Shown in pieces: positions 2,458 to 2,826 of a stretch of 6,362 nucleotides of DNA. The notes beneath the pieces are model-generated. The model was not told the origin of the DNA. It saw only the letters and a program-made list of their open reading frames with translations, and did not search any database. The translations under genes and the position numbers were made by a program. How positions within the stretch are numbered: position 1 is the first letter of the stretch; every line of letters starts with the position of its first letter. Source of the DNA: a virus (Duplodnaviria > Heunggongvirae > Uroviricota > Caudoviricetes); the IMG/VR virus record IMGVR_UViG_2700989510_000024; one strand, 5' to 3'.

Positions 2458-2485
2458 TACGAAATTTATAAGTTGAAACTTAAAA

Positions 2486-2821
2486 GTAGACGGTTGGTAG
2501 ACAGATACACTTAACCCTCTACCAACCATCTACTAATTAATGTTTTGAATTATATAGGTATTTTTAATGTGGTAGAGAGGTGGACAGTTTATTTTATATT
2601 TCTAAACCACGGGGGTATCTAAAAATAGATAGTTATGGGTTCATTTTTAAAATTTTTCTTTTAACTATCTACACTGTCTACCATTTAGTAAAAGTCATTA
2701 ATTATCAATGTATTAATACTGTAGAGAGTTGGTAGACAGTTTGCAGATTGTTTTTTTGTTATGTGTTAATAACATTAAATAAATCAAACAATTATATCGG
2801 TAGACAGTTGGTAGACAGTTG
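2486..2821. repeat. iteron-like repeat cluster in an AT-rich spacer; candidate origin of replication
   Basis: Direct copies: GTAGACGGTTGGTAGACAG (2486-2504), GGTAGAGAGGTGGACAGTT (2571-2589), GTAGAGAGTTGGTAGACAGTT (2721-2741), GGTAGACAGTTGGTAGACAGTTG (2799-2821). Inverted copies: 2517-2533 (reverse complement GTAGATGGTTGGTAGAG) and 2667-2682 (reverse complement GGTAGACAGTGTAGAT). Cores within a pair sit about 11 bp apart and the copies are separated by AT-rich DNA. Confidence 0.6.
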
Positions 2822-2826
2822 TAACG

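What the first reader, a model, noticed from the sequence alone, without database searches (positions are those of the whole stretch)
2458..2826. Iteron array with paired direct and inverted GGTAGACAG cores: putative satellite origin
At least four direct and two inverted copies of a GGTAGACAG-based unit occur in 370 bp of AT-rich DNA immediately downstream of the replication gene. Several are tandem doublets spaced about one helical turn apart. This is the architecture of iteron origins bound by their cognate initiator, as with P4 ori/crr and PICI origins placed after rep. The core sequence differs from the P4 type I iteron (TGTTCACC) as I recall it, which would imply a distinct replication specificity.
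Basis: partly seen in the sequence, partly recalled or inferred. Interest (0 to 1): 0.55.

Follow-up and report, generated by a model that had tools for sequence, protein, structure and literature searches.

The report
Iteron replication origin of a phage satellite
The repeat-filled, AT-rich gap after the helicase gene is almost certainly the replication origin of an E. coli phage-satellite island (PICI type), a known kind of origin whose repeat sequence matches the DNA-binding tail of its own helicase.

Summary
The 369-bp gap 2458-2826 (GC 0.29) holds 13 copies of an 11-bp unit, GGTAGACAGTT. They form six doublets, four direct and two inverted, separated by very AT-rich spacers. All five exact GGTAGACAG copies in the window lie here.

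The upstream 601-aa protein is a P4-alpha-type SF3 helicase. Its C-terminus matches the solved P4 origin-binding winged helix (1KA8, E 1e-18).

The window is part of an E. coli island that in intact copies sits at tRNA-Thr. Its gene order matches EcCICFT073, a PICI whose rep-ori segment was shown to replicate. That tested origin carries the same GGTAGACAG/GGTAGATAG core.

In 33 of 35 relatives an array in both orientations follows rep directly. The core varies (GGTAGACA, GGTGAACA as in P4, GGTGGAGA, GGCGGACAG). The variant tracks the wing of the Rep C-terminal domain, including in natural chimeras.

No second cluster exists in the intact island, so this is a single origin rather than a P4-style ori plus crr.

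However, the core is a 2-of-8 variant of the P4 iteron and is shared with a published PICI origin. This is a new member of a known kind, of modest interest. Function in this IS-flanked copy is untested.

The parts
652..2457 (+). rep: 601-aa initiator-helicase. Residues 1-~125 form a TOPRIM-like domain without the catalytic residues. Residues ~146-490 carry D5_N plus an SF3 helicase. Residues 491-592 form the winged-helix origin-binding domain.
2122..2427 (+). Coding region for the Rep origin-binding winged-helix domain (aa 491-592). It includes the wing with the 'CTKGPDKGRT' insertion that goes with GGTAGACA-type iterons.
   Evidence: PDB 1KA8 (P4 alpha origin-binding domain) E 1.1e-18. Wing/iteron covariation.
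2485..2506 (+). Iteron doublet 1: AGTAGACGGTT GGTAGACAGAT, 11-bp spacing.
2513..2534 (-). Iteron doublet 2, inverted: AGTAGATGGTT GGTAGAGGGTT on the - strand. With doublet 1 it forms a palindrome with 17-nt arms.
   Evidence: (pair I4, 94% complementary). Folds as a DNA hairpin at -12.7 kcal/mol, z -6.2.
2571..2589 (+). Iteron doublet 3: GGTAGAGAG GTGGACAGTT, 8-bp spacing. It is the inner doublet of the left set.
2590..2662 (.). Central AT-rich spacer between the convergent inner doublets, and the candidate melting region. It contains a weak unit at 2624-2634 and a conserved GC island, CCACGGGGG, at 2608-2616.
   Evidence: Duplex-stability profile, composition, alignment A1.
2663..2682 (-). 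Iteron doublet 4, inverted: GGTAGACAG TGTAGATAGTT on the - strand, 9-bp spacing. It is the inner doublet of the right set.
2703..2715 (+). Match to the IHF core consensus WATCAANNNNTTR (TATCAATGTATTA), 5 nt before doublet 5.
   Evidence: Weak: 19 of 200 shuffles of the window reach 2 matches.
2720..2752 (+). Iteron doublet 5: TGTAGAGAGTT GGTAGACAGTT, followed by a possible degenerate third unit TGCAGATTGTT.
   Evidence: The first unit reads GGTAGACAGTT in three of the five full-length relatives (ETEC4077, FDA1058, EC02) and differs by one base in the other two.
2782..2794 (+). Second IHF-consensus match (AATCAAACAATTA), 5 nt before doublet 6.
   Evidence: It is part of the 38-nt repeat family D1.
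2799..2820 (+). Iteron doublet 6: two perfect GGTAGACAGTT units. One relative has three.
   Evidence: FDA1058 carries one extra exact 11-bp unit.
2839..3369 (+). ProQ/FinO-family gene (RefSeq start at 2839). It marks the downstream edge of the origin region and is not needed to explain the array.
   Evidence: The gene is absent from most relatives that keep an array.

Best explanation
Region 2458-2826 is the single, Rep-dependent replication origin of a Gram-negative phage-inducible chromosomal island (PICI-type satellite).

Proposed mechanism:
1. The C-terminal winged-helix domain of the adjacent 601-aa SF3 helicase recognises the 9-11-bp iteron GGTAGACAG(TT). This is inferred from homology to the P4 alpha origin-binding domain and from covariation.
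2. Several Rep molecules bind the six doublets. Four of the doublets have 11-bp spacing, which puts the two sites on one face of the helix. Three doublets lie on each side of a 73-bp AT-rich centre, and the inner pair is convergent.
3. Rep assembles as a self-loading hexameric helicase and melts one of the AT-rich spacers, as shown for SaPI Reps and P4 alpha. This step is inferred by analogy.
4. Host polymerase then copies the excised circle after helper-phage induction.

Shown here: the repeats, their statistics, the protein homology, the synteny with a tested PICI replicon, and the covariation. Inferred: binding, melting, and activity of this IS-flanked copy.
For: - Repeats far exceed chance and are confined to this gap. 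Four of the six least stable 40-bp duplex windows in the 6.3-kb window are spacers of the array.
- Rep residues 491-592 match the solved P4 alpha origin-binding winged helix 1KA8 (E 1.1e-18). Residues 146-592 are 49% identical to alpha. The helicase core also matches SaPI5 PriRep, 7OLA.
- Intact copies (E. coli N1420) sit at tRNA-Thr with int, an HTH gene, Icd-like, DUF4222, rep, this gap, and ProQ/PerC. EcCICFT073 has the same order. Its rep-ori segment kept a temperature-sensitive plasmid at the restrictive temperature, and deleting rep or ori abolished or reduced this (PMC6092414). Its origin, L044 6997-7284, carries GGTAGACAG, GGTAGATAG and GGTAGAGAG in both orientations.
- In 33 of 35 relatives the family pattern GG[TC][AG][AG]ANA[CG] occurs at 7.5-27 per kb in the 400 nt after rep, against 1.5 per kb or less elsewhere in the locus.
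- Iteron type follows the wing of the origin-binding domain: 7 of 7 'GPDKG'-wing proteins go with GGTAGA-type cores, 12 of 12 'KTKxG-xRSN' with GGTGAA, 9 of 9 'KSTKG-xxRSN' with GGTGGAGA, and 3 of 3 'KKKATRGRIQSN' with GGCGGACAG.
- Natural chimeras point the same way. L037 and L034 are 98-100% identical in rep DNA up to about 210 nt before the stop; the rest of rep and the gap then differ, and the iteron switches from GGTGAACAC to GGTGGAGAG. L029 and L030 break at about -170 nt, with GGTGGACAG against GGCGGACAG. L012 and L017 share only the helicase, the origin-binding domain and the array up to +258, and they keep the same iteron.
- ProQ, PerC and DUF4222 neighbours are missing from most loci that have arrays.
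- The whole island has no second cluster.
Against: - There is no experiment on this element.
- Among close relatives (88-95% identical gaps), iteron columns vary as much as spacer columns (15.7% against 18.2%, p 0.66). Constraint shows only at deeper divergence.
- The window's copy is cut by IS elements on both sides and may be inactive.
- Rep has no recognisable primase, so priming is unexplained.
- The layout here, six doublets over 336 bp, differs from the roughly 250-bp layout common in relatives.
- In P4 the iteron cluster directly after alpha is crr, a cis-acting helper site rather than the initiation site.
Confidence: 0.8

Rival explanations
1. The array is a crr-like cis-acting enhancer. 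Rep binds it, but DNA synthesis starts at a separate origin elsewhere in the island, as in P4, where ori lies 4.5 kb from crr.
For: In P4 the cluster directly after the alpha gene is crr (L042 4291-4590), while ori lies at 9086-9809. One relative with a full-length alpha, L039, has its only cluster about 1.9 kb upstream of rep.
Against: GGTAGACAG-like sites in the intact 14.5-kb island (L001) cluster only here. The family pattern shows no outside cluster of more than 2-3 sites in 33 relatives. The array has its own AT-rich, low-stability spacers. In EcCICFT073 the rep gene plus the adjacent region sufficed for plasmid maintenance.
Confidence: 0.07
2. The repeats are mainly operators. A transcription factor, or Rep acting as a repressor, binds them to control the downstream ProQ/FinO-PerC operon, and they are not an origin.
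For: The last doublet ends 18 nt before the ProQ start codon. The iteron core contains TAGACA, which resembles a -35 hexamer, and three weak promoter-like sites overlap units. No terminator follows rep on the + strand.
Against: Promoter-like sites are not enriched (3 against 1.8 +/- 1.2). Arrays persist in relatives whose downstream genes are unrelated, such as capsid genes in L014 and L043 and other genes in L012 and L017. The core tracks the Rep C-terminal domain, not any neighbouring gene. A secondary regulatory effect of Rep binding is not excluded.
Confidence: 0.08
3. The repeats are a packaging site (cos/pac), a partition site or a recombination site, or are decaying repeats without function.
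For: E. coli PICIs carry cos sites. This copy is IS-flanked, and in some strains an IS3-family element sits inside the array.
Against: The position directly after rep is conserved across Enterobacterales, and the core co-varies with the Rep wing. Neither a packaging site nor neutral decay predicts that. The published PICI cos sequences quoted in the supplement are unrelated in sequence.
Confidence: 0.03

Closest known systems
Origins of Gram-negative PICIs, type example EcCICFT073 (Fillol-Salom et al. 2018, ISME J, PMC6092414)
   Same: The island gene order is the same: int, HTH, Icd-like, small ORFs, DUF4222, rep, gap, and PerC further on. The origin sits directly 3' of rep, with iteron sets in both orientations flanking AT-rich DNA. 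The iteron core is the same (GGTAGACAG/GGTAGATAG). Rep is 43% identical along its full length, including the N-terminal domain.
   Different: The integration site differs (tRNA-Thr next to proA, against ycfD-phoQ). The origin-binding domain belongs to a different sub-lineage, with a 5-residue 'GPDKG' wing insertion. The gap is longer (369 against 288 bp) and the units are mostly 11-bp doublets. ProQ/FinO follows the origin instead of the hypothetical and SSB genes. No capsid genes are annotated in the N1420 copy.
Satellite phage P4: alpha protein with ori and crr (type I iteron TGTTCACC)
   Same: Both have an SF3 helicase plus a C-terminal winged-helix origin-binding domain (49% identity; 1KA8). 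The iterons are of the same family (GGTGAACA against GGTAGACA), occur in both orientations, and form a cluster that begins just after the stop codon of the gene.
   Different: There is no zinc-ribbon/TOPRIM primase; a 125-aa TOPRIM-like domain without the catalytic residues takes its place. There is one cluster rather than ori plus crr. Two of the eight core positions differ. No sid, delta or psu genes are annotated in the island.
SaPI origins and self-loading Rep helicases of Staphylococcus aureus (PMC9371898)
   Same: The origin sits immediately downstream of rep. Six to twelve short iterons lie on both sides of an AT-rich centre with opposite orientations. A C-terminal winged helix on a hexameric helicase reads them, and no loader is known. 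The helicase core matches PriRep5, 7OLA.
   Different: The relationship is distant (E 2.7e-8, helicase core only). SaPI iterons are penta- or hexanucleotides, against 9-11 bp here. The island transcription layout differs.
Iteron plasmid origins (pPS10, RK2, R6K, F and P1 types)
   Same: Repeated initiator-binding sites lie next to AT-rich DNA, and specificity is set by the initiator/iteron pair.
   Different: Plasmid iterons are 17-22 bp, mostly direct, and accompanied by DnaA boxes. Their initiator is a WH1-WH2 protein that recruits host DnaB. Here the initiator is itself a helicase, DnaA boxes are not enriched, and the units are 9-11 bp in both orientations.

Membership tests
Gram-negative PICI origin (Fillol-Salom 2018) | The origin lies immediately 3' of the rep (pri-rep) gene. 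| tested here: met
   The first unit starts 28 nt after the rep stop at 2457. The position is the same in EcCICFT073.
Gram-negative PICI origin (Fillol-Salom 2018) | Two sets of iterons flank an AT-rich region. | tested here: met
   Three doublets lie on each side of 2590-2662, and the inner doublets are convergent. The other spacers are equally AT-rich, so the melting site is not pinned down.
Gram-negative PICI origin (Fillol-Salom 2018) | Island context: site-specific integrase, AlpA-type regulator, rightward unidirectional gene order, size about 8-15 kb. | tested here: met
   The intact copy in E. coli N1420 has int at tRNA-Thr, an HTH gene and the rep-ori block mostly on one strand, over about 14.5 kb. 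It is syntenic with EcCICFT073. The AlpA identity of the HTH gene was not tested by a profile search.
Gram-negative PICI origin (Fillol-Salom 2018) | Rep-dependent autonomous replication of a rep-ori clone, and induction by a helper phage. | not testable with these tools
   This was shown only for EcCICFT073.
P4 alpha / ori-crr replicon | An alpha-type protein with an SF3 helicase followed by the C-terminal origin-binding winged helix. | tested here: met
   48.9% identity over residues 146-592. 1KA8 E 1.1e-18 over residues 491-592.
P4 alpha / ori-crr replicon | An N-terminal DnaG-type primase (zinc ribbon plus TOPRIM). | tested here: not met
   [not shown]
P4 alpha / ori-crr replicon | Type I iteron TGTTCACC. 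| tested here: not met
   The core here is GGTAGACA against GGTGAACA in P4, so 6 of 8 positions match. It belongs to the same iteron family but is a different variant.
P4 alpha / ori-crr replicon | Bipartite cis elements: ori and crr several kb apart. | tested here: not met
   The intact island L001 has a single cluster.
P4 alpha / ori-crr replicon | P4 hallmark genes (sid, delta, psu, epsilon). | not tested
   None is annotated in L001. No profile search was run on the hypothetical proteins.
Iteron plasmid origin (RepA / pi / TrfA type) | 17-22-bp direct iterons plus DnaA boxes, and a WH1-WH2 initiator without helicase activity. | tested here: not met
   Units are 9-11 bp in both orientations. 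DnaA boxes are not enriched: 8 against 6.9 expected, and only one one-mismatch match falls inside the gap (2764-2772). The initiator carries an SF3 helicase.

The most novel reading that the evidence does not exclude
The last ~65 codons of rep (the wing of the origin-binding domain) and the adjacent iteron array may form an exchangeable specificity cassette. At least five or six mutually orthogonal wing/iteron pairs (GGTAGACA, GGTGAACA, GGTGGAGA, GGTGGACAG, GGCGGACAG, GGTAGATAG) would circulate among classic PICIs, capsid-forming PICIs and P4-like satellites of Enterobacterales. Swapping the cassette would let satellites with nearly identical helicases coexist in one cell without origin cross-talk. 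For example, L035 and L037 come from the same metagenome-assembled genome and their helicases are 99% identical. The window's GPDKG-wing/GGTAGACAG pair would be one such specificity. EcCICFT073 would have reached the same core independently with a different wing.
Probability: 0.45. Interest if true: 0.45.

Novelty: new member of a known kind. Interest (0 to 1): 0.27.

Why it matters
The result identifies the replicon of a common E. coli island: the gap sequence is found in 105 of 5426 complete genomes. It ties that island to the experimentally studied PICI and P4 replication systems. The comparative data also give a testable wing-residue-to-iteron-base correspondence for P4-alpha-type origin-binding domains. 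That could be used to predict compatibility between satellites or to build orthogonal helicase/origin pairs. It does not reveal a new mechanism.

Tried and rejected
- **Second cluster (P4-style ori plus crr):** none in the intact island or in the 3-kb flanks of relatives, apart from P4 itself and L039.
- **DnaA boxes:** not enriched.
- **Known RNA families:** none anywhere in the window at E <= 1.
- **Antisense RNA paired with the ProQ/FinO gene:** terminator-like hairpins occur on the minus strand, but the 2855-2960 minus-strand fold is no better than shuffles (z -0.23).
- **Promoters inside the array:** 3 weak matches against 1.8 expected.
- **Extra conservation of iterons over spacers among close relatives:** not seen.
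- **Neighbouring proteins (ProQ, PerC, DUF4222, small ORFs) as iteron binders:** they are absent from most loci that have arrays.
- **IHF sites:** two perfect consensus matches sit at equivalent positions before doublets 5 and 6, but the statistics are weak. They are kept only as a possibility.
- **Iteron sequences in Fig. 2a of PMC6092414:** they are in the figure image only and could not be read. The CFT073 genome sequence was used instead.

Full report
**Observation**

The gap between the stop codon of the 601-aa ORF (652-2457) and the next gene is 369 bp to the first ATG at 2827, or 381 bp to the RefSeq start at 2839. Its GC content is 0.27-0.34, against 0.45-0.6 on either side.

All five exact GGTAGACAG copies in the window lie in this gap. 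Scoring the fuller unit GGTAGACAGTT with up to 3 mismatches gives 13 units inside the gap. Dinucleotide-preserving shuffles of the gap give 1.3 +/- 1.1, with a maximum of 7. The best repeated 9-mer family, chosen without prior knowledge, has 10 members against at most 6 in shuffles.

The units form six doublets:

| Doublet | Coordinates | Strand | Spacing |
|---|---|---|---|
| 1 | 2485-2506 | + | 11 bp |
| 2 | 2513-2534 | - | 11 bp |
| 3 | 2571-2589 | + | 8 bp |
| 4 | 2663-2682 | - | 9 bp |
| 5 | 2720-2741 | + | 11 bp |
| 6 | 2799-2820 | + | 11 bp |

Doublets 1 and 2 together form a palindrome with 17-nt arms. The spacers between doublets account for four of the six least stable 40-bp duplex windows in the whole 6.3 kb.

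**The adjacent protein**

Pfam finds D5_N, DUF5906 and Pox_D5 in the 601-aa protein. Residues 146-592 are 48.9% identical to the alpha protein of satellite phage P4. Residues 491-592 match the solved origin-binding winged-helix domain of alpha, PDB 1KA8, at E 1.1e-18. The helicase core also matches SaPI5 PriRep, 7OLA.

P4 alpha is organised as a DnaG-type primase, then an SF3 helicase, then a C-terminal winged helix (PMC2777425). That this winged helix binds the type I iterons is from my own knowledge of the P4 literature (Ziegelin et al. 1993, 1995; Yeo et al. 2002).

In the P4 record, crr is a 300-bp block with ten type I repeats in both orientations. It begins about 45 nt after the alpha stop codon, and ori lies 4.5 kb away. 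The type I repeat TGTTCACC reads GGTGAACA on the other strand. The window's core, GGTAGACA, differs from it at two of eight positions.

**What the window comes from**

Positions 128-6236 are 99.8-100% identical to a chromosomal island present in many E. coli genomes. In strain N1420 the island lies beside tRNA-Thr and proA. Its genes run: integrase, an HTH gene, an AntA/AntB protein, Icd-like, small ORFs, DUF4222, rep, this gap, ProQ/FinO, PerC and further ORFs. It is about 14.5 kb long.

The gap sequence itself occurs in 105 of 5426 complete E. coli genomes, always on the chromosome.

The window's two ends do not belong to the island. Positions 1-127 encode the C-terminus of an IS3-family-like transposase, a reading based on translation alone. 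Positions 6237-6362 are an ISEc8 (IS66-family) end that truncates an HTH gene. This particular copy is therefore a fragment bounded by IS elements.

**Link to an experimentally tested origin**

Fillol-Salom et al. 2018 (PMC6092414) define Gram-negative PICIs. [quoted passage not shown]

For EcCICFT073, a rep-ori clone maintained a temperature-sensitive plasmid at 44 C. Deleting rep abolished this, and deleting ori reduced it. Some E. coli PICIs carry perC, according to the same paper.

EcCICFT073 (CFT073 1377749-1389210) has the same gene order around rep as the window's island. Its Rep is 43% identical to the window's over the full length.

Its origin gap, L044 6997-7284, contains GGTAGACAG, GGTAGATAG and GGTAGAGAG units in both orientations. 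So the window's core is the same as that of a published, functional PICI origin. The iteron sequences drawn in that paper's Fig. 2a could not be read, so I used the genome sequence instead.

**Relatives**

A scan of one genome per species returned 34 loci from Enterobacterales. I added P4, the induced 16.5-kb element vB_KppS-Ant (a capsid-encoding satellite-like element) and EcCICFT073.

In nearly all of these, 8-13 short repeats in both orientations start within 10-30 nt of the rep stop codon. A single family-level pattern, GG[TC][AG][AG]ANA[CG], occurs at 7.5-27 per kb in the 400 nt after rep. Elsewhere in the same loci it occurs at 1.5 per kb or less. This holds for 33 of 35 relatives.

The exceptions are:
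- L039, a 792-aa alpha with its only cluster about 1.9 kb upstream of rep.
- L019, which is weak (5 per kb); L041 is also low (7.5 per kb).
- P4, which is the only locus with two clusters.

The intact island L001 has one cluster only.

**Covariation with the Rep C-terminal domain**

The core differs between loci and tracks the wing of the origin-binding domain:

| Wing motif | Iteron core | Loci |
|---|---|---|
| C/R-T-K/R-G-P-D-K-G-R (5-residue insertion; includes the window) | GGTAGA(C)A(G/C) | 7 of 7 |
| KTKxG-xRSN (P4: TKQG-IQTN) | GGTGAA(C/T)A(C/G) | 12 of 12 |
| KSTKG-xxRSN | GGTGGAGA | 9 of 9 |
| ESKKKATRGRIQSN | GGCGGACAG | 3 of 3 |
| TIKGR-RQTN (EcCICFT073: KVKGV-TQTN) | GGTAGA(T/C)AG | L036, L038 |

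Natural chimeras separate this signal from shared ancestry:
- L037 and L034/L035 are 96% identical in the N-terminal domain and 99% in the helicase. Their rep DNA is 98-100% identical until about 210 nt before the stop. From there the rest of rep and the whole gap diverge, and the iteron changes from GGTGAACAC to GGTGGAGAG.
- L029 and L030 break at about -170 nt. The iteron changes at one base, GGTGGACAG against GGCGGACAG.
- L012 and L017 have unrelated N-terminal domains (L017 carries Zn_Ribbon_Prim plus Toprim_3) and unrelated downstream genes. They are homologous only from the start of the helicase to +258, the end of the array, and they share the iteron.

The window's neighbours (ProQ, PerC, DUF4222 and the small ORFs) are missing from most loci that have arrays. 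The only protein consistently linked to the repeats is the Rep C-terminal domain. This is strong indirect evidence that Rep binds them.

**Limits of the evidence**

- Among six close relatives of the gap (88-95% identical), iteron columns vary as often as spacer columns (15.7% against 18.2%, p 0.66). Constraint is visible only at greater divergence. There the spacers no longer align (27-55% identity between the window and L012), yet the cores persist.
- Close relatives do show unit-wise change. FDA1058 has a third exact 11-bp unit in the last array. The window's degenerate unit at 2720-2730 matches the consensus in three of the five full-length relatives.
- The layout in the window and in L008 (++ -- ++ | -- ++ ++ over 336 bp) differs from the roughly 250-bp layout common in other relatives.
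- Promoter-like sites are not enriched. DnaA boxes are not enriched. No Rfam family matches.
- Two perfect IHF-consensus matches sit 5 nt before doublets 5 and 6, but 19 of 200 shuffles give as many.

**Mechanism**

The best-supported model is that of the SaPI Reps and P4 alpha. SaPI Reps are self-loading helicases whose C-terminal winged helix reads iterons placed immediately after rep. Half of the iterons lie on each side of an AT-rich centre, in opposite orientations. Binding and melting in vitro need no ATP (PMC9371898).

In the window the inner doublets, 2571-2589 (+) and 2663-2682 (-), converge on a 73-bp AT-rich centre. That arrangement would suit two hexamers loading on either side.

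Binding, melting and the site of initiation are all inferred. Priming is an open question because the N-terminal 125 residues are not a recognisable primase:
- They have no Pfam hit.
- The positions of the catalytic Glu and DxD read Ala22 and 'AGE', and there is no zinc ribbon.

**Comparison, novelty and verdict**

The array works like the EcCICFT073 and SaPI origins. It meets the sequence-testable criteria of a Gram-negative PICI origin. It is not a P4 replicon, because three features fail: there is no primase domain, the cluster is single, and the iteron is a variant. It is not a plasmid-type iteron origin either.

It is a new member of a known kind.

The wing/iteron correspondence and the cassette-like exchange of the last ~65 codons of rep together with the origin are the only parts that go beyond what I could find described. 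They remain to be tested. I score interest at 0.27.

Noticed in passing
[not shown]
   Followed up: partly
window 1-127 and 6237-6362: Both ends of the window are IS sequences, not island DNA. The left end encodes an IS3-family-like transposase C-terminus (...[25 protein letters not shown]...*). The right end is an ISEc8 (IS66-family) end that truncates an HTH gene to 35 aa, against 176 aa in strain N1420. This copy of the island is a fragment.
   Followed up: partly
window 2839-3653: A ProQ/FinO-domain gene and a PerC-family regulator directly follow the origin. A plasmid FinO-family protein (PcnR, PMC8053102) controls copy number, so a link to replication control is conceivable. A test for an antisense RNA over the 5' end of the gene was negative.
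   Followed up: partly
window 2608-2616: A GC island, CCACGGGGG, sits in the middle of the AT-rich centre of the array and is invariant in all six close relatives. No explanation was found.
   Followed up: no
L035 and L037 (contigs 24 and 9 of the same MAG, JBCNOW01): Two islands in one metagenome-assembled genome encode Reps that are 96-99% identical in the N-terminal and helicase parts. They have different C-terminal wings and different iterons (GGTGAACAC against GGTGGAGAG). This hints at selection for non-cross-reacting origins.
   Followed up: partly
L007 2774-4039 (E. coli FDAARGOS_1300), also H54 and H55: In some strains an IS3-family element is inserted inside the iteron array. It removes the right-hand doublets and the ProQ/PerC genes.
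   Followed up: no
L025 (Pectobacterium brasiliense) rep 3' end: This Rep has a frameshifted or truncated origin-binding tail (562 aa), yet the GGTGAACAG array after it is intact. It is probably a recently inactivated replicon.
   Followed up: no
L002, L004, L006 downstream of PerC; L043: Close relatives of the island carry different cargo after PerC, such as NUDIX and DUF2213 proteins. The same Rep-ori type also occurs in the 16.5-kb induced element vB_KppS-Ant, which has capsid, portal and terminase genes. The rep-ori block is therefore shared between satellites with and without their own capsid genes.
   Followed up: no
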